From the NCBI GenBank assembly GCA_026005055.1, contig BPKI01000001.1:2188214-2252213 (forward strand): a stretch of DNA of 64,000 nt, read 5' to 3'. The position numbers and the translations under genes are program-made. The notes under the pieces are model-generated. The model was not told where the DNA came from, did no database searches, and saw only the letters and a list, made by a program, of their open reading frames with translations. Source of the stretch: Lysobacterales bacterium (GTDB lineage: Bacteria; Pseudomonadota; Gammaproteobacteria; Xanthomonadales; BPKI01). Positions 3,377-52,274 of this stretch are shown here, in pieces. Position 1 is the stretch's first letter, and the number at the start of each line of letters is the position of its first letter.

Positions 3377-5280
<1,904 letters not shown>

Positions 5281-10633: not shown

Positions 10634-12570
10634 CTGCGCCCGGAACGGCCCGGGCGCGCCTCCTCGCGCAGCCGAGCCGCGAACTCGTCCGGCGTCATGG
10701 TGCCGAGATTCTCCCCGCTGCGCGCGCGCACCGCGACGAGCCCCGCCTCCCGCTCCCGATCCCCCACGACCAGCAGGTAAGGCACGCGCTGCACGGTGTG
10801 CTCGCGAATCTTATAGCCGATCTTTTCGTTCCTCAAGTCGGGCTGCACGCGCAGACCTCGGTCCTGCAAGGCTCGCACGACCGAGGCCGCATACTCCGCT
10901 TGTGCATCGGTGATGTTCATGACCACCGCCTGCACCGGCGCGAGCCAAGGCGGAAAAGCGCCCGCGTAGTGCTCGATCAAGATGCCGATGAAACGCTCGA
11001 AGGAGCCGATGATCGCGCGATGCAGCATCACCGGGGTGCGTCGGCTGGAATCTTCGGCCACGTACTCGGCGCCGAGGCGCTGAGGCATCGAGAAATCGAC
11101 CTGAATGGTCCCGCACTGCCAGGTCCGACCGAGGGAATCCTTCAGCACGAACTCGATCTTGGGACCATAAAAGGCGCCTTCTCCGGGCTGAACCTGGTAT
11201 TGAAGGCCGTGCGCCTCGAGCGCCGCCTCGAGCGCCTTCTCCGCCTTGTCCCAGATCTCGTCCGATCCGATGCGCTTGGCGGGACGCGTCGAGAGCTTGT
11301 AGAGGATATCCTCGAAGCCGAAGTCGGCGTAGACCTGACGGAGCACCTCGATGAAATCGTGCACCTCGCCTTCGATTTGCTCCTCGGTGCAGAAAATGTG
11401 CCCGTCGTCCTGAGTGAAGGCACGCACCCGCATCAGTCCGTGGAGCGCGCCCGAGGGCTCGTTGCGGTGACAGGACCCGAACTCGCCGTAGCGGATCGGG
11501 AGCTCGCGGTAGCTATGCAAGCCCTGCCGGAAGACCTGGACGTGCCCCGGGCAGTTCATCGGCTTGACCGCGTAGTCGCGGTTCTCCGAGCTCGTGGTGA
11601 ACATGTTTTCCTTGAAGTTCTCCCAGTGCCCGGAGCGCTCCCATAGGCTCCTGTCGAGGATCATCGGACAGCGGATCTCCTGATATCCCGCCCGGCGATA
11701 GACCCCGCGCATGTAGTCCTCGACGATGCGATAGAGCGTCCAGCCCTTGGGATGCCAGAACACCATCCCGGGCGCTTCCTCCTGAAGGTGGAACAGGCCG
11801 AGCTGCCGTCCGAGCCGTCGGTGATCTCGCTTCTCGGCCTCCTCGAGACGCTTCAAATACGCCTCGAGGTCCTCGCGGCGAAGCCAAGCAGTGCCATAAA
11901 TGCGCTGCAGCATCTCGTTGCGCGGATCGCCCCGCCAATAGGCCCCGGCCACCTTCATCAACTTGAAGTGCCTGAGCTTGCCGGTGTCGGGCACATGCGG
12001 GCCGCGGCAGAGATCCACGAACTCGCCCTGACGGTAGAGGGAGATCGTCTCCTCGGGCGGAATGCTCTCGATGATCTGCGCTTTGTACTCCTCGCCCATC
12101 CGCCGGAAGAATGCAATCGCCTCCTCGCGCGGCATCTCGGTACGCTCGACCACGAGCGCTTCGGCGGCGATCCGGCGCATTTCCGCCTCGATTTTCTCGA
12201 GATCTTCGGGCGTGAAGGCTTCCTCTCGGGCGAAGTCGTAGTAGAAGCCGTCCTCGATCACCGGCCCGATCGTCACCTGGGTGCCCGGGTAGAGGCGCTG
12301 CACTGCCTGCGCCAGCAGATGGGCAGTGGAGTGGCGGATGATTTCGAGCGCTTCAGGATCGCGCTCGGTCAGGATCTCCACCCGCGCATCGCGCTCGATG
12401 CGAAACGAGAGATCGACGATTCGCCCATCCACCCGCGCGGCGATGGCGGCCTCGGCCAAGCGGGAGCTGATCGATTCCGCCACCGCGCGCGCCGTGAGCG
12501 GCTGGGGATAGCTTCTTTCAGAGCCGTCTTTGAGGGTGATCCGAATCATGAACGAGAACGACCGATGCAC
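10627..12570 (-). CDS. thrS: threonine--tRNA ligase
   Basis: [13 protein letters not shown]-domain start and class II core. GTG 12570 has GAGGG 8 nt upstream; ATG 12549 is the alternative start. Confidence 0.9.
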
Positions 12571-12983
12571 GCTCGATGCCCTCGGCGCGAAGGCGACGCG
12601 AAGGCGCTCAGGAGCAGGCGGGCCCCAAAGTGTAGCAGCCGTCGAGCCGGTCTTCGCAGAACGGGTGCGCCTCGAGCCCCCAATTCAGCCGAGCGCTCGC
12701 GCGCTCGCGCGCTCGGCCCACGCGCGAAGAGGGGCTCGGCGACTCGACAAGCGCCCATCTCTCGATCCCTCTTCCTTCGCGTGCGCCTCCGTGTGCTTCG
12801 GAAATCCGCATCCAGCGGGCAACGCTTGTCCCGGCTCCGTCCCTAATCGCGACCCACCGACCAAACAGCAGCCTCCGTTCGCCGCAACGGCTTCCTTCCC
12901 GCCGCAAATGGGAGGGTGGCGAGCATGCGCGCTTGAGGGAGGCCGTCGAGCATGGCAGAATCGCAAGCTCGCGCGATTCAGGC

Positions 12984-13058
12984 GGGCGCGTAGCTCAGCG
13001 GTAGAGCACTACCTTGACATGGTAGGGGTCACAGGTTCGATCCCTGTCGCGCCCACCA
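12984..13058 (+). tRNA. tRNA-Val (anticodon GAC)
   Basis: Hand-folded. Acceptor GGGCGCG/CGCGCCC, D arm GCTC-AGCGGTA-GAGC, anticodon stem CTACC/GGTAG with loop TTGACAT, T arm ACAGG-TTCGATC-CCTGT, encoded CCA. Confidence 0.9.
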
Positions 13059-13356
13059 ACGAACCAGCGCTCGATGCTTGGGCGGCCATCGCTTCTGCCT
13101 CATCCCGCGGAACGAATGGGGTGACGGAGGTCGGATCGTGGCGTCGGCCCGAAAACCCTCAGGCCGGGTCGAAGGCGGAAGCATCCCATTGCTCGAACCG
13201 CGAGCGCGGCGCCGTAGCCGTGAAACATTGGGCTCGCGGCCCCGGCCTCTCACCACCCCCATCCACGCGGGAGAAGGGGTGAGCCGCCTGCCTGGACCAC
13301 CCCCTTAGGCTTCCGCCGCCCTTGGACCGAAAGCTGGAAACGCCGCGACGAGGTTT

Positions 13357-48551: not shown

Positions 48552-48863
48552 TCAGTGCAGCTTGATCTGCACGTCGACGCCCGCCGGCAGCTCGAGCTTC
48601 ATGAGCGCATCGACCGTCTTCTCGTTCGGATCGACGATGTCGAGGACCCGCTTGTGGGTCCGAATCTCGTACTGGTCGCGCGCATCTTTGTCGATGTGCG
48701 GCGAGATGAGCACGGTGTAGCGCTCGATCCGCGTCGGCAACGGGATCGGCCCGCGGACTTGCGCGCCGGTGCGCTTGGCGGTCTCCGCGATCTCGCCCGC
48801 CGAACGATCGATCAGACGATGATCGAAGGATTTGAGCCGGATGCGGATCTTCTGCTGTGCCAT
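48552..48863 (-). CDS. rpsJ: 30S ribosomal protein S10
   Basis: ATG 48861-48863. [19 protein letters not shown].., 103 aa. Confidence 0.95.
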
Positions 48864-48887
48864 GGGGCTTGACTCCGACGACTTCAC

Positions 48888-48923
48888 AAAGAACGACGAG
48901 CGGGCGATCTCGGGGCCGCCCGC
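48888..48923 (-). terminator. attenuator-like GC hairpin plus U-rich tract in the tuf-rpsJ spacer (S10-leader-like)
   Basis: Minus-strand RNA GCGGGCG-GCCCCGAGAU-CGCCCGC followed by UCGUCGUUCUUU. Ends about 25 nt before the rpsJ ATG. Confidence 0.35.
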
Positions 48924-48936
48924 CCCACCGAAAGCC

Positions 48937-50127
48937 TCACTCGATGATCTTGGTCACGACGCCGGCGCCCACGGTGCGACCGCCCTCGCGGATCGCGAAG
49001 CGCAGACCCTCCTCCATCGCCACCGGCGCAATCAAACTGATCGTCAGCTTCACGTTGTCCCCAGGCATCACCATCTCCACACCCGAGGGCAACACCACCG
49101 AACCCGTCACATCCGTCGTCCGAAAATAAAACTGCGGACGATAACCATTGAAAAACGGCGTGTGCCGACCCCCCTCCTCCTTGCTCAACACATACACCTC
49201 CGCCTCAAACTTCACATGCGGCGTGATCGACCCAGGCTTGCACAACACCTGACCACGCTCCACCTCATCCCGCTTCGTCCCACGCAACAACACCCCAATA
49301 TTGTCCCCCGCACGCCCCTCATCCAATAACTTCCGAAACATCTCCACACCCGTACAGGTCGTCTTCTGCGTCGGACGCAATCCCACAATCTCCACCTCAT
49401 CCCCCACCTTGATCACCCCACGCTCCACTCGACCCGTCACCACCGTCCCTCGACCCGAAATCGAAAACACATCCTCAATCGGCATCAAAAACGGCTTGTC
49501 CACCTCCCGCACCGGCTCCGGAATATACGCATCCAACGCCTCCACCAACTTCACCAACGAAGGCATCCCCACCTCCGACTGGTCCCCCTCCAACGCCTTC
49601 AGCGCCGACCCACGAATCACCGGCACCTCATCCCCAGGAAAACCATACTTGCTCAACAACTCCCGAACCTCCATCTCCACCAAATCCAACAACTCCGGAT
49701 CATCCACCTGATCCACCTTGTTCATAAACACCACAATGTACGGCACCCCCACCTGACGCGCCAACAAAATATGCTCACGCGTCTGCGGCATCGGACCATC
49801 CGCCGCCGATACCACCAAAATCGCACCATCCATCTGCGCCGCACCCGTAATCATGTTCTTCACATAGTCCGCATGACCCGGACAATCCACATGCGCATAG
49901 TGCCGCTTCGCCGACTCATACTCCACATGCGCCGTCGCAATCGTAATCCCACGCGCACGCTCCTCCGGCGCCGCATCAATCTGATCATACGCCTTAAACT
50001 CACCCCCAAAACGCTCCGCACCCAACTTCGTCAACGCCGCCGTCAACGTCGTCTTCCCATGATCCACATGACCAATCGTCCCAACATTCACATGCGGCTT
50101 CGTGCGTACAAACTTCTCTTTGGCCAT
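48937..50127 (-). CDS. tuf: elongation factor Tu (compositionally mosaic, see findings)
   Basis: [33 protein letters not shown].., [12 protein letters not shown]. 396 aa. Confidence 0.97.
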
Positions 50128-50177
50128 GGCTCAATTTCCTCGATGGATGGTGTTCTCGACGTGGGGATTCTTGGAAA

Positions 50178-52274
50178 TCAGGACTTCTTGTTGTTGATGA
50201 CCGCATCCGCGATGTTCGCGGGCGCCTCTGCGTAATGGTCGAATTCCATGGTGAAGGTCGCTCGGCCTTGGGTCATGGAACGCAGGGCGGTCGCATAACC
50301 GAACATTTCGCCGAGCGGAACCATTGCGTTGATGATCTTGCCCGAAGGGCTGTCATCGGAACCCTGCAGGATACCCCGGCGCCGCGACAGATCGCCCATC
50401 ACGTCGCCCATGTAGTCCTCCGGCGTCACGACTTCGACCTTCATGATCGGCTCGAGGAGCACGGGATTGGCCTTCGTCACCGCCTCCTTGAAGGCCATCG
50501 ACCCGGCGATCTTGAAGGCCATTTCGGAAGAGTCCACCTCGTGAAATGAGCCGTCGACGAGCCGGACCTTGAAATCGACCACGGGATAGCCAGCGATCAC
50601 GCCGTTGGCCATCTGCTCCTGGATGCCCTTGTCCACCGCCGGAATGTATTCCTTCGGAATCACGCCGCCGACGATGGCGTTTTCGAAGATGTAGCCCTTA
50701 CCGCGCTCGAGCGGCTCGAGCTCGATGACCACGTGCCCGTACTGACCGCGACCGCCGCTCTGACGTACGAACTTTCCTTCCTGCCGGACGGGACGACGGA
50801 TGGTTTCTCGATACGCGACCTGCGGTTTGCCGACATTGGCCTCGACGCCGAATTCGCGCTTCATGCGGTCGACGATGATTTCGAGGTGCAGCTCTCCCAT
50901 CCCGGCGATGATCGTCTGACCCGACTCCTCGTCGGTCCGCACCCGGAAGGAGGGATCTTCCTGGGCGAGACGAGACAGCGCCACGCCCATCTTTTCCTGA
51001 TCGGCCTTGGTCTTGGGCTCGATCGCCATGGCGATCACGGGCTCGGGGAAGCTCATCCGCTCGAGAGTGATCGGATGACTCGGATCGCAGAGGGTGTCGC
51101 CCGTGGTGACATCCTTGAGCCCCACGGCGGCGGCGATGTCACCCGCGCGCACCTCCTTGATCTCGTCGCGCTGGTTCGCATGCATCTGCAAGAGGCGGCC
51201 GATCCGCTCTTTCTTGCCCTTCACCGAATTGAGCACGGTGTCGCCGGAGGTGACGACCCCGGAATAGACGCGGAAGAAGGTGAGCGAGCCGACGTAGGGG
51301 TCGGTCATGATCTTGAAGGCGAGACCGGCGAAGGGCGCGTCGTCGCTCGCCATCCGCGTGACCGGCCTCTCCTGATCGTCCACGCCGGCCACCGGCGGGA
51401 TGTCCACGGGGGAGGGTAGATATTGGATGACGCCGTCGAGAAGCGCCTGGACCCCCTTGTTCTTGAAGGCCGAGCCGCAGAACACGGGGATGATGCTATT
51501 GGCGATCGTCGCCTGGCGAATGCCGCGAACGATTTCCTCCTCCGCGAGCTCTCCCTCCTCGAGGTACTTGTTCATCAGCTCTTCGCTGGACTCGGCCGCG
51601 CTCTCGACGAGATGGGCGCGGGCGGCACGGCATGCCTCCAGCATCTCGGAGGGGATCTCCCGGTACTCGAAGCGCATGCCTTGCGTCTCCGGATCCCAGA
51701 TGATGGCCTTCATCTTCACGAGGTCCACCACCCCCTGGAACCCATCCTCGGCGCCGATCGGCAGCTGCATGGGAACCGGATGCGCCCCCAAGCGTTCGCG
51801 GAGCTGGCGCACGACCTTTTGAAAGTCGGCGCCGGTGCGATCCATCTTGTTGACGAAGGCCACGCGCGGAACGCGGTACTTGTTGGCCTGACGCCAGACC
51901 GTCTCCGACTGCGGTTGCACCCCACCGACCGCGCAGAGCACGAAAACCGCTCCATCGAGCACCCGCAGCGAGCGCTCGACCTCGATCGTGAAGTCGACGT
52001 GGCCGGGGGTGTCGATGATGTTGAAACGATGCTCGGGGAAGGAATGGTCCATCCCCTTCCAGAAACAGGTGGTCGCCGCCGAGGTGATGGTGATGCCCCT
52101 CTCCTGCTCCTGCTCCATCCAGTCCATGATCGCCGTTCCGTCATGGACTTCGCCGAGCTTGTGGGAGACGCCGGTATAGAACAGGATGCGCTCGGTGGTC
52201 GTGGTCTTTCCGGCATCAATGTGGGCCATGATGCCGAAGTTCCGGTAACGCTCGATGGGGGTCTTGCGCGACAC
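50178..52274 (-). CDS. fusA: elongation factor G
   Basis: [26 protein letters not shown].., 698 aa. Confidence 0.97.

What the first reader, a model, noticed from the sequence alone, without database searches (positions are those of the whole stretch)
48937..50177. tuf is a compositional mosaic: about 1.1 kb of nearly C-free wobble positions with an abrupt junction near 49030
Seen in sequence (I read tuf codon by codon on the minus strand; all counts are by hand):
- About 22 of the first 366 codons end in C and about 7 end in A. Roughly 92% therefore end in G or T (GTG, TTG, ACG, GCG, GAT, ATT, TAT, CAT, TTT, GGT, CGT).
- In contrast, 14 of the last 30 codons (48940-49029) end in C.
- The adjacent rpsJ has about 45 of 103 C-ending codons.
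- Leu switches from CTG/CTC to TTG, and Ile from ATC to ATT.
- Lines I counted inside the block are about 53-58% GC, against high-60s in the flanks.
- The plus strand is so G-poor that three long stop-free antisense ORFs appear.
- The downstream junction lies inside the conserved C-terminal domain. The upstream edge is at or just beyond the start codon and the fusA-tuf spacer. fusA itself uses the host pattern.

Established knowledge: tuf normally shows the strongest host-optimal codon bias. Gammaproteobacteria often carry two tuf copies kept alike by gene conversion.

Inference, with three possibilities:
- most of this tuf was replaced by a foreign or separately evolving allele, through transfer followed by conversion that stopped about 90 nt short of the stop codon;
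- the mRNA is under an unusual C-avoiding constraint;
- the assembly is chimeric across a conserved multi-copy gene.
Basis: partly seen in the sequence, partly recalled or inferred. Interest (0 to 1): 0.7.

Follow-up and report, generated by a model that had tools for sequence, protein, structure and literature searches.

The report
tuf recoded to G/T-ending codons
The gene for the cell's most abundant protein (EF-Tu) is written almost entirely in G- or T-ending codons except for its last 21 codons; this is not foreign DNA or an assembly error, because both gene copies, sister genomes and unrelated bacteria from about ten phyla show the same pattern, and I found no published description or explanation of it.

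Summary
Observation confirmed exactly. tuf (48937-50127, minus strand) has 22 C-ending and 7 A-ending codons among its first 366. Fourteen of the last 30 codons end in C. No other gene in the 64 kb window resembles it.

- It is not an assembly chimera. Five independent assemblies carry it.
- The second tuf copy of the same strain is 99.5% identical, including the C-ending tail.
- It is not a transferred allele. Xanthomonadales relatives form a graded series, so the recoding arose in place.
- Synonymous divergence in tuf is 4-6 times lower than in 12 neighbouring genes.

The same architecture recurs in at least 10 phyla, including the cultured Inmirania thermothiophila, and only in tuf. The rule is: G wherever a synonymous G exists, TTG for Leu, otherwise T, with C kept mainly before A. 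A C-ending 3' tail follows, about 20 codons long in many lineages.

It therefore looks like a gene-specific force on nucleotide composition rather than on decoding.

My best mechanistic guess (about 0.35) is that it removes Rho-loading sequence from the tuf transcript. Such sites are C>G-biased, A/C-rich and 60-90 nt long. The main rival is strand-biased gene conversion between the two copies, filtered by mismatch repair. I found no published description.

The parts
48937..50127 (-). tuf (EF-Tu) coding sequence, 396 codons plus TGA. This is the str-operon copy (fusA-tuf-rpsJ).
   Evidence: ORF and translation with [14 protein letters not shown] and NKVD motifs. Pfam PF00009, PF03144 and PF03143 are on record for the identical protein.
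49003..50127 (-). Keto-wobble body, codons 1-375. Composition is G 42%, T 25%, A 18%, C 15%, with GC skew +0.47. Third positions are 65% G, 27% T, 6% C and 2% A. Codons 2-8 are the least strict.
   Evidence: No 78-nt window in it has C>G. It has 5.6 YC dinucleotides per 100 nt, against 14-17 in flanking genes.
48940..49002 (-). C-ending 3' tail, codons 376-396 ([21 protein letters not shown]). Third positions are 67% C, 29% G, 5% T and 0% A.
   Evidence: Change-point analysis, likelihood-ratio statistic 41 and composition. The same tail occurs in the paralogue and in sister genomes. A tail of 18-24 codons recurs in at least 12 sequences from at least six higher taxa.
50128..50177 (-). fusA-tuf spacer and tuf leader. 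It is C/A-rich and G-poor (GC skew -0.28), the opposite of the tuf body. It is not shared with the tufB leader.
50178..52274 (-). fusA (EF-G), the upstream control gene with host codon usage (C3 0.47).
48552..48863 (-). rpsJ (S10), the downstream control gene with host codon usage.
48898..48925 (-). Intrinsic-terminator-like hairpin followed by a T-rich run, between tuf and rpsJ.
   Evidence: This is a consensus scan only; the number of such sites is no higher than in shuffled sequence.
48832..50235 (+). Three antisense ORFs (48832-49329, 49301-49711, 49771-50235). They are by-products of the wobble composition, not genes.
   Evidence: They follow from the near absence of A-ending sense codons.

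Best explanation
SHOWN (about 0.9 confidence).
- The tuf gene is native, not mosaic.
- From the start codon to 21 codons before the stop, its synonymous sites follow a nearly deterministic 'keto-wobble' rule. G is used wherever a synonymous G exists, even GGG and CGG. Leu is TTG rather than CTG. T is used for the pyrimidine-ending two-fold codons. C is retained mainly when the next codon starts with A.
- The last 21 codons keep C-ending, host-optimal codons.
- Both tuf copies of the genome carry the same sequence. Their identity starts a few bases before the ATG and ends at the stop codon, which indicates gene conversion.
- The trait arose in place within this Xanthomonadales lineage and is still progressing.
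- The same body-plus-tail architecture has arisen in at least 10 other phyla, and only in tuf.
- Synonymous sites in tuf change 4-6 times more slowly than in neighbouring translation genes. A strong directional force on nucleotide composition therefore holds them. It is not tRNA-based translational selection, because fusA and the ribosomal-protein genes use the opposite codons.

INFERRED (about 0.35 confidence).
- The force is selection on the nascent tuf transcript to remove Rho-utilisation (Rut) features. These are C>G bias, A/C-rich segments that Rho's primary binding site prefers, and YC dinucleotides.
- This would let tuf be transcribed to full length even when ribosomes lag behind RNA polymerase, for example when EF-Tu itself is limiting or when tuf translation is autoregulated.
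- The last 60 nt or so would be exempt. A Rut needs 60-90 nt, so one placed there cannot act before the polymerase has finished the gene. Ordinary translational selection for C-ending codons would therefore show through in the tail.
For: Exact counts and uniqueness within the window.

Same strain and sister genomes:
- The second copy in the same strain is 99.5% identical from -7 to the stop.
- Sister genomes have both copies of this type, with 0 and 6 differences between copies.
- Paralogue identity is confined to the CDS in 10 genomes.
- Independent assemblies agree.

Evolution in place:
- dS in tuf is 0.09 and 0.205, against 0.37-0.93 in 12 neighbouring genes, while dN is comparable.
- Graded series in Xanthomonadales: Vulcaniibacterium G3 0.57, T3 0.04, C3 0.38; L140 intermediate.
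- Polarised synonymous changes: C>T 7 against T>C 3, although there are about four times more T sites.

Recurrence elsewhere:
- 37 distinct full-length tufs of this type come from Deinococcota, Gemmatimonadota, Actinobacteria, Chloroflexota, Thermodesulfobacteriota, Aminicenantes, Alpha- and Gammaproteobacteria and others.
- Flanking ORFs in those loci are ordinary, and no other ORF of at least 150 aa shares the pattern.
- The cultured isolate Inmirania thermothiophila has it in both copies.
- G+T content at codon positions 1 and 2 rises with the trait (correlation with the fraction of C- or A-ending codons r = -0.76). The force therefore seems to act on nucleotides, not on wobble decoding.

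Fit to a Rho-based explanation:
- The body has no 78-nt window with C>G, against 12-43% of windows in neighbouring genes.
- It has one third of their YC density.
- The profile of C- or A-ending codons is flat along the gene, with a one-sided step about 20 codons (60 nt) before the stop.
- The review PMC12360218 states that Rut sites lie in C>G-biased, weakly structured regions, are optimally 60-90 nt long, and that A and C are preferred in the consensus for Rho's primary binding site. It also lists Salmonella tufB as regulated by EF-Tu-dependent, Rho-dependent termination.
- PMC6735719 says the same of tufB.
Against: - No experiment supports the mechanism. I did not check whether these genomes encode Rho.
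- It does not fully explain why only tuf is recoded, and not fusA, rpoBC or the ribosomal-protein genes, which face the same polarity risk.
- The 60-nt leaders upstream of tuf have ordinary composition (G about equal to C). In this window the leader is strongly C/A-rich. That is odd if Rho loading had to be avoided at such cost.
- In Trueperaceae the tail is only 4-9 codons (31 and 72 in two low-contrast cases).
- The recent G>T changes (8, against 0 for T>G) show that G is not always the preferred state; from the sites listed they are mostly in Gly and Arg codons.
- Every genome with this trait that I could check has two identical tuf copies. The Rho idea does not need this, but the conversion-drive rival predicts it.
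Confidence: 0.4

Rival explanations
1. Strand-asymmetric biased gene conversion between the two tuf copies, filtered by mismatch repair.
- Suppose the heteroduplex always pairs the donor's template strand with the recipient's coding strand. Ectopic repair of lagging-strand gaps in a gene co-oriented with replication would do this.
- A donor with coding G then gives a C:C mismatch, which MutS does not see. A donor with coding C gives G:G, which is seen and rejected.
- T against C gives A:C against G:T. G against A gives C:A against T:G.
- Alleles with G or T on the coding strand would therefore convert the other copy more often. This drives the coding strand towards G and T without any benefit to the cell.
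For: - tuf is the only gene seen duplicated in the regions examined, and the two copies are kept identical exactly over the CDS.
- Every genome with the trait that I could check has two copies. From my own knowledge, Actinobacteria usually have a single tuf and I believe Dehalococcoidia do too; here Nitriliruptoraceae (A and B contexts in different MAGs) and Dehalococcoidia (both in one MAG) show both gene contexts.
- The trait starts at the 5' border of homology.
- The predicted order of strength is G over C strongest, then T over C and G over A. This matches the partial stages, where four-fold codons are all G but two-fold pyrimidine codons are still C (L008, L120, Vulcaniibacterium).
- The mismatch hierarchy of MutS and NucS is from my own knowledge, not tested here.
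Against: - The tail is inside the converted, identical region but is not recoded.
- Conversion in Salmonella tuf starts uniformly and runs both ways to the gene borders (abstract of PMC5485169). That predicts a symmetric decline at both ends. The observed profile is flat with a one-sided step.
- The tail's very high C3 (0.6-0.9) suggests strong translational selection on tuf, which a rare conversion bias would have to overcome.
- Pelagibius has identical copies without the trait.
- The required strand bias is assumed, not shown.
Confidence: 0.2
2. Selection on another property of the tuf mRNA. Candidates are weaker secondary structure for faster translation, resistance to an endoribonuclease, or stability of an untranslated stored message.
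For: - Predicted folding of the native gene is weaker: -35.0 kcal per 120 nt. The same protein recoded with host codons gives -44.9 +/- 1.3, and neighbouring genes give -44 to -50.
- T is avoided before A, which is UpA avoidance. This is a context effect of the kind usually seen with selection on RNA.
- With a keto base at every third position, no run of three or more A/C bases is possible. This removes motifs such as ACA.
Against: - The rule is far from the least-structured solution. A-ending designs reach -10.6 and a C>A design reaches -29.4. Yet A is avoided even in genomes of 45-50% GC.
- No trend of this kind is seen in the ribosomal-protein genes or fusA.
- The cleavable or structured C-ending tail would defeat resistance to a ribosome-dependent nuclease.
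Confidence: 0.15
3. Mutational bias. Cytosine and adenine on the exposed non-template strand of a very heavily transcribed gene are deaminated (C>T, A>G), perhaps more so in thermophiles.
For: - The amino bases C and A are the ones lost, and the keto bases G and T are gained. CTG>TTG is a synonymous C>T change.
- C>T is the commonest polarised transition.
- From my own knowledge of their sources, several of these lineages are thermophilic (Inmirania, Methylocaldum, Thermomicrobium, hot-spring bins).
Against: - The tail, the leader and the trailer belong to the same transcript but are not affected.
- In the partial stages, four-fold sites change C to G while two-fold C is untouched. This is the reverse of what deamination predicts.
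- Four-fold sites are 72-88% G, not T.
- Retention of C depends on the next base.
- fusA lies directly upstream in the str gene order (rpsL-rpsG-fusA-tuf), so is presumably co-transcribed, yet it is normal.
Confidence: 0.05
4. One reading: most of tuf was replaced by a horizontally acquired allele, and the conversion tract ended about 60-90 nt before the stop codon.
For: - The junction is abrupt.
- The best named EF-Tu matches outside the clade are Methylococcales and Inmirania (87-89%), whereas EF-G matches Xanthomonadales.
Against: - Xanthomonadales EF-Tu sequences are equally close: Vulcaniibacterium 87%, Rudaea 87%.
- The best-matching 'foreign' EF-Tus are themselves of this type or partly so. 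The resemblance can therefore come from shared composition.
- Relatives show graded intermediates.
- The same junction position recurs in unrelated phyla.
- No donor genome with this codon usage exists among the loci examined.
Confidence: 0.03
5. Assembly chimera across a conserved multi-copy gene.
For: - tuf is a 1.2-kb exact repeat, and contigs break at it (L002, L137, L140).
- Some MAGs of other lineages join fusA-tuf directly to nusG.
Against: - The body-tail junction is identical in a 532-kb long-read contig, in the window, and in two JGI contigs from another assembly.
- It is in both copies on single contigs of 157 kb and 2.3 Mb in sister genomes.
- It is in isolate genomes.
Confidence: 0.01

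Closest known systems
Gene conversion between tufA and tufB (Salmonella/E. coli model; PMC5485169)
   Same: There are two tuf copies in the canonical contexts: fusA-tuf-rpsJ, and tRNA(Tyr-Gly-Thr)-tuf-tRNA(Trp)-secE-nusG. They are kept identical exactly over the coding sequence.
   Different: From my own knowledge, the copies in enterobacteria use ordinary optimal codons. Here the homogenised sequence carries an extreme G/T wobble code and a separate C-ending tail.
Translational codon bias of highly expressed genes
   Same: It is a strong, gene-specific codon bias in the most highly expressed protein gene. Synonymous divergence is low.
   Different: The preferred codons are the opposite of those in fusA, rpoBC and the ribosomal-protein genes of the same operons. 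They include GGG, CGG, TTG and T-ending two-fold codons, which are normally poor. Only the last 21 codons look like classical optimal usage.
Rho-dependent autoregulation of tufB in Salmonella (Brandis et al. 2016, as summarised in PMC6735719 and PMC12360218)
   Same: It is a documented, tuf-specific link between EF-Tu level, ribosome progress on tuf mRNA and Rho-dependent termination.
   Different: There, a leader structure exposes a Rut and Rho terminates transcription inside tufB. Here the coding sequence appears stripped of Rut-like composition, which would abolish such termination. None of this was tested here.
Replication- or transcription-associated G+T (keto) strand skew
   Same: The direction of skew is the same: G>C and T>A on the coding, leading strand.
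   Different: The magnitude is far larger (GC skew +0.47). The skew is confined to one CDS minus its last 63 nt. Adjacent genes and the untranslated regions of the same transcript lack it.
Mosaic genes made by homologous recombination with foreign alleles
   Same: There is an abrupt compositional junction inside a conserved gene.
   Different: The junction is shared by the paralogue and by relatives, and recurs at the same place in unrelated phyla. No donor is evident.

Membership tests
EF-Tu (tuf), translational GTPase | Domains GTP_EFTU, GTP_EFTU_D2 and GTP_EFTU_D3 | tested here: met
   PF00009, PF03144 and PF03143 are on record for the identical protein.
EF-Tu (tuf), translational GTPase | G-motifs ([18 protein letters not shown]) and a length of about 394-397 aa | tested here: met
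   Translation. Identity to named EF-Tu proteins is 85-89%.
EF-Tu (tuf), translational GTPase | str-operon context rpsL-rpsG-fusA-tuf-rpsJ | tested here: met
Conversion-homogenised tufA/tufB pair | A second copy in the tRNA-tuf-secE-nusG context in the same genome | tested here: met
   L136 from the same strain. L003 and L006 in sister genomes, with tRNA-Tyr, -Gly and -Thr upstream and tRNA-Trp downstream.
Conversion-homogenised tufA/tufB pair | Near-identity confined to the coding sequence, with unrelated flanks | tested here: met
   0-6 differences within the CDS. Identity ends 3-12 nt upstream of the ATG and 0-15 nt after the stop. In the same strain it is 99.5% from -7 to the stop.
Horizontally acquired or mosaic allele | Pattern absent from close relatives and from the paralogue | tested here: not met
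   It is present in the paralogue, in three sister genomes, and in graded form in other Xanthomonadales.
Horizontally acquired or mosaic allele | A donor lineage whose genome-wide codon usage matches the block | tested here: not met
   In about 60 loci with a tuf of this type, the flanking ORFs have C3 0.25-0.50. No other ORF shares the pattern.
Horizontally acquired or mosaic allele | tuf phylogeny incongruent with fusA and rpoB | tested here: inconclusive
   I compared hit lists only, not trees. EF-G points to Xanthomonadales. EF-Tu is 87-89% identical to several gammaproteobacterial orders, Xanthomonadales included. Composition-driven convergence is likely.
Classical translational (tRNA-adapted) codon bias | The same preferred codons in other highly expressed genes of the genome | tested here: not met
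   Ribosomal-protein genes, fusA and rpoBC have C3 0.40-0.50, against 0.06 in the tuf body.
Transcription- or replication-associated strand skew | Skew extends over the whole transcription unit, including untranslated parts and co-transcribed genes | tested here: not met
   The tail, leader, trailer, fusA and rpsJ are all unskewed.
Rho-resistant (Rut-depleted) transcript | No C>G-biased window of Rut length, and low YC and A/C-run content | tested here: met
   0% of 78-nt windows have C>G, against 12-43% in neighbouring genes. YC density is 5.6 per 100 nt, against 14-17. Criteria are from PMC12360218.
Rho-resistant (Rut-depleted) transcript | Reduced Rho binding and termination, and a rho gene present in the genome | not testable with these tools
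   This needs biochemical or genetic assays and a scan of the whole genome.

The most novel reading that the evidence does not exclude
The keto-wobble tuf is an undescribed, convergent trait of bacteria from many phyla. A specific nucleic-acid-level force rewrites about 250 synonymous sites of the most expressed gene, against translational optimality. The force would be one of two things: selection that makes the tuf transcript immune to Rho-dependent polarity (a fail-safe for EF-Tu synthesis), or a selfish drive from strand-biased gene conversion filtered by mismatch repair. Either would be a new determinant of codon usage. Cultured organisms are available for testing.
Probability: 0.5. Interest if true: 0.9.

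Novelty: new variant of a known kind. Interest (0 to 1): 0.8.

Why it matters
tuf is the textbook reference for optimal codon usage. It is also a standard phylogenetic and codon-adaptation marker.

If its synonymous sites in many phyla are set by a separate force, several things follow:
- Codon-adaptation indices trained on tuf will be wrong in these lineages.
- tuf-based trees and HGT detectors will be misled by compositional convergence. Amino-acid composition shifts too.
- MAG assemblies will often break or misjoin at tuf.

Mechanistically it gives a natural experiment, repeated many times. It bears on what limits expression of the most abundant protein: Rho polarity and transcription-translation coupling, or biased gene conversion in bacteria. 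Cultured carriers exist for direct tests, namely Inmirania thermothiophila, and in partial form Methylocaldum szegediense and Vulcaniibacterium gelatinicum.

Tried and rejected
- **Assembly chimera.** Rejected by independent assemblies and by both copies lying on single long contigs.
- **Recent HGT.** Rejected by the shared pattern in the paralogue and relatives, by the graded series, and by the lack of any donor.
- **Simple C>T deamination.** Rejected because the partial stages change four-fold C to G first, and because the tail and UTRs escape.
- **Minimal mRNA structure.** Folding is weaker than with host codons, but the rule is far from the least-structured code.
- **Matching tRNAs co-transcribed with tufB.** The cluster is the canonical Tyr-Gly-Thr. 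Only Trueperaceae have Gly(CCC).
- **Known RNA element in or near the tail.** There is no Rfam hit at E <= 1.
- **Internal promoters.** Nothing above chance.
- **Resistance to a HigB-like nuclease that needs an amino base at the wobble position.** Considered, then dropped, because the C-ending tail would remain cleavable.
- **Tail length against spacing to rpsJ.** There is no consistent relation. L081 and L016 have long tails with short spacers.
- **Gradient along the gene.** There is none. The profile is flat with one step.
- **Literature.** Eight full-text searches found no description of this tuf codon pattern.
- **Not used.** The metagenome scan, structure prediction, and the PDB and fold searches were not relevant to a synonymous-site question.
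Full report
**1. What is in the window**

The ORF at 48937-50127 on the minus strand encodes a 396-residue EF-Tu with all the canonical motifs. It lies between fusA (50178-52274) and rpsJ (48552-48863).

- Third positions of codons 1-366 are G 236, T 101, C 22 and A 7.
- The last 30 codons have C 14, G 14 and T 2.

The codon table of the block is close to deterministic:

| Amino acid | Codon use |
|---|---|
| Ala | GCG 26/26 |
| Glu | GAG 32/32 |
| Lys | AAG 19/19 |
| Gln | CAG 9/9 |
| Thr | ACG 22/23 |
| Val | GTG 42/45 |
| Leu | TTG 24/27 |
| Gly | GGG 19, GGT 17 |
| Arg | CGT 12, CGG 7 |
| Two-fold pyrimidine codons | mostly T |

None of about 70 other ORFs in the 64 kb window comes near it. 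Their C3 is 0.23-0.54, against 0.09 in tuf. The only 300-nt stretches with GC skew above 0.25 on either strand lie inside tuf.

A likelihood change-point places the 3' junction between codons 375 and 376, at 49002/49003. The tail [21 protein letters not shown] is 67% C-ending. The finding's right edge, 50177, is the end of the fusA-tuf spacer; the start codon is at 50127.

**2. Not an artefact**

- A public long-read assembly of essentially the same strain (GCA_017880035.1) is 99.99% identical over 21 kb.
- A 1195-bp JGI contig is 100% identical from -4 to the stop codon (L002). This is the typical appearance of a collapsed exact repeat.
- A second JGI contig starts inside the tail and continues into tRNA-Trp-secE-nusG (L137).
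- On the same 532-kb contig, about 16 kb upstream, the second tuf copy is 99.5% identical to the window's copy from -7 to the stop. The three indels are long-read errors that also split rpoB, rpsG and rplJ in that assembly.

**3. Shared by relatives, and evolving in place**

Two sister genomes (EF-Tu 97-98% identical) each carry both copies on one contig, with the same body and the same tail:
- In one genome the copies are identical.
- In the other they differ at 6 sites.

In ten genomes examined, paralogue identity begins 0-12 nt before the start codon and ends 0-15 nt after the stop. Gene conversion therefore homogenises exactly the coding sequence, tail included.

Synonymous divergence between the window and its sisters is much lower in tuf than in neighbouring genes, while dN is similar:

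| Comparison | dS in tuf | dS in 12 neighbouring translation genes |
|---|---|---|
| Window vs L005 | 0.09 | 0.37-0.82 |
| Window vs L004 | 0.205 | 0.43-0.93 |

EF-G places the organism in Xanthomonadales: Mizugakiibacter, Rehaibacterium, Tahibacter and Vulcaniibacterium at 82-84%.

Within that order there is a graded series:

| Genome | tuf wobble composition | Comparison |
|---|---|---|
| Vulcaniibacterium gelatinicum | G3 0.57, T3 0.04, C3 0.38 | its fusA has C3 0.57 |
| L140, closest outgroup contig | G 0.52, T 0.12, C 0.31 | first 42 codons only |
| Sister genome L003/L004 | C3 0.12 | |
| Window and L005 | C3 0.09-0.10 | |

Parsimony-polarised synonymous changes in the two youngest branches are C>T 7, T>C 3, G>T 8, T>G 0, T>A 3 and G>A 1. 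Loss of C is therefore still going on.

This is progressive recoding in place, not a single replacement event.

**4. A recurrent phenomenon**

I searched one genome per GTDB species for the invariant motif [12 protein letters not shown] written in G/T-ending codons. The hits include:
- Trueperaceae and other Deinococcota
- Gemmatimonadota
- Nitriliruptoraceae
- Thermomicrobium and Dehalococcoidia
- Thermodesulfobacteriota
- Aminicenantes
- Poriferihabitaceae
- Alpha- and Gammaproteobacteria
- others

I recovered tuf in these loci:
- Thirty-seven distinct full-length genes have C3 of at most 0.15 and G3 of at least 0.5.
- The most extreme are Trueperaceae, with C3 0.01 and A3 0.01.
- Several come from genomes of only 45-51% GC and still have G3 of 0.61-0.69.
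- Their proteins are 71-86% identical to the window's, in line with taxonomy.
- A Xanthomonadales EF-Tu that is only at stage 1 is 87% identical. The trait therefore arose repeatedly.

Flanking ORFs in the same loci are ordinary, and no other ORF of at least 150 aa in about 0.7 Mb shares the pattern.

The 'nearest normal' EF-Tus turned out not to be normal:
- The isolate Inmirania thermothiophila has body G 0.62, T 0.25, C 0.12, A 0, with tail C 0.62 and fusA C 0.56.
- Methylocaldum szegediense and a Rudaea MAG are partial.

**5. The rule**

Across lineages:
- Four-fold boxes are 72-88% G, and even GGG and CGG are used.
- Two-fold purine codons are almost all G.
- Leu is TTG.
- Two-fold pyrimidine codons and Ile are T. 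The exception is before a codon that starts with A, where C is kept in 58% of cases, against 9-17% otherwise.

Partial stages have every four-fold codon on G while the two-fold pyrimidine codons are still C (L008, L120, Vulcaniibacterium). G over C therefore comes first, and T over C second.

G+T content at codon positions 1 and 2 also rises with the trait (r = -0.76 with the fraction of C- or A-ending codons). This is confounded by phylogeny. It suggests a force on nucleotide composition rather than on wobble decoding.

**6. The tail**

- A C-ending tail of 18-24 codons, starting at about L|RFAIREGG..., recurs in the window clade, another gammaproteobacterium, an alphaproteobacterium, several Gemmatimonadota, Chloroflexota (Dehalococcoidia and Thermomicrobium) and delta-type lineages.
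- Tails of 8-16 codons occur in others.
- In Trueperaceae the tail is mostly only 4-9 codons.
- The tail uses 'C if possible', for example GGC GGC CGC ACC GTC GGC GCC GGC GTC GTC. This is what a highly expressed gene of a high-GC genome is expected to look like.
- Pooled over 40 genes, the fraction of C- or A-ending codons is flat at about 0.1 from the first codons on. It steps up only in the last 20 codons, to 0.35 and then 0.54.
- The 60-nt leaders and trailers have ordinary composition.
- In this window the leader is C/A-rich.

**7. Mechanism**

*What is excluded.* Translational selection through tRNA supply is excluded, because fusA, rpoBC and the ribosomal-protein genes use the opposite codons. 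Transcription-linked deamination is unlikely for three reasons:
- the tail and untranslated parts of the same transcript escape;
- four-fold sites go to G, not T;
- the partial stages leave two-fold C untouched.

Minimising mRNA structure is not the target. The native gene folds less strongly than a host-recoded version (-35.0 against -44.9 +/- 1.3 kcal per 120 nt). A-ending designs, however, reach -10.6.

*The idea I favour: Rho-proofing.*
- Published work states that Rut sites lie in C>G-biased, weakly structured RNA.
- It states that they are optimally 60-90 nt long.
- It states that A and C are preferred in the consensus for Rho's primary binding site.
- It states that Salmonella tufB is regulated by EF-Tu-dependent, Rho-dependent termination (PMC12360218; PMC6735719).
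- The tuf body has no 78-nt window with C>G, against 12-43% of windows in neighbouring genes.
- The tuf body has one third of their YC density.
- It avoids exactly A and C at every free position.
- The exempt tail is about 60 nt long, the length below which a Rut could not act before the gene is finished.

This is an inference, at about 0.35. It does not explain why only tuf is recoded, or why the leaders are not recoded.

*The main rival: a conversion drive filtered by mismatch repair (about 0.2).* It explains why tuf is special:
- it is the only gene seen duplicated in the regions examined, and its copies are kept identical;
- every carrier I could check has two copies.

It also explains the order of the stages. 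It fits poorly with the flat, one-sided profile and with the unrecoded tail inside the converted region.

**8. Known or new**

Eight full-text searches found no description of this pattern.

The components are known:
- tuf duplication and conversion;
- codon bias;
- Rho attenuation of tufB.

The following appear to be new:
- the keto-wobble body with a C-ending tail;
- its restriction to tuf;
- its convergence across phyla.

**9. Verdict**

- The HGT and chimera readings are wrong.
- The 'C-avoiding constraint' reading points the right way, but the phenomenon is broader and general.
- The mechanism is open, with two testable candidates.

Noticed in passing
L001 and L136 (GCA_017880035.1) against window 38937-64000: The public assembly of the same strain differs from the window by single-base indels. 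They split rpoB, rpsG, rplJ and the second tuf copy into two ORFs each. These look like long-read errors, because the window's versions are intact.
   Followed up: partly
window 50128-50177 (-): The fusA-tuf spacer is C/A-rich and G-poor (GC skew -0.28, 24 YC per 100 nt). This is the opposite of the tuf body it precedes. The tufB leaders of the sister genomes are also C-rich.
   Followed up: partly
window 48898-48925 (-): There is a terminator-like GC hairpin plus a T-rich run between tuf and rpsJ. It comes from a consensus scan only.
   Followed up: no
L051, L070, L092, L096: These MAG contigs join fusA-tuf directly to secE/nusG-rplK. They are probably misjoins through the identical 1.2-kb tuf repeat. 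Many other contigs simply end at tuf (L002, L137, L140, L141).
   Followed up: partly
L076 4928-5003, L035 6026-6101: In Trueperaceae the tRNA cluster upstream of tufB carries tRNA-Gly(CCC), where the other lineages have tRNA-Gly(UCC). This matches their heavy use of GGG in tuf.
   Followed up: no
(EF-Tu and EF-G hit lists): The best named EF-Tu matches are Methylococcales and Inmirania, while EF-G matches Xanthomonadales. The EF-Tu matches that I checked are themselves G/T-wobble types. Compositional convergence may therefore distort EF-Tu similarity rankings and trees.
   Followed up: partly
window 5180-5256 (-) and 12984-13058 (+): tRNA-Pro(GGG) and tRNA-Val(GAC) lie inside two mechanically called ORFs (4189-5277 minus strand, 12530-13282 plus strand). 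Those ORF calls are too long or spurious.
   Followed up: no
K-type loci; hit names: Many carriers or near relatives come from hot or extreme habitats: Inmirania, Methylocaldum, Vulcaniibacterium, Rehaibacterium, Thermomicrobium, hot-spring bins, and soda-lake and salar samples. That these are hot or extreme habitats is my own knowledge of the organisms and of the sample names, not a tool result. A link with temperature or salt was not tested.
   Followed up: no
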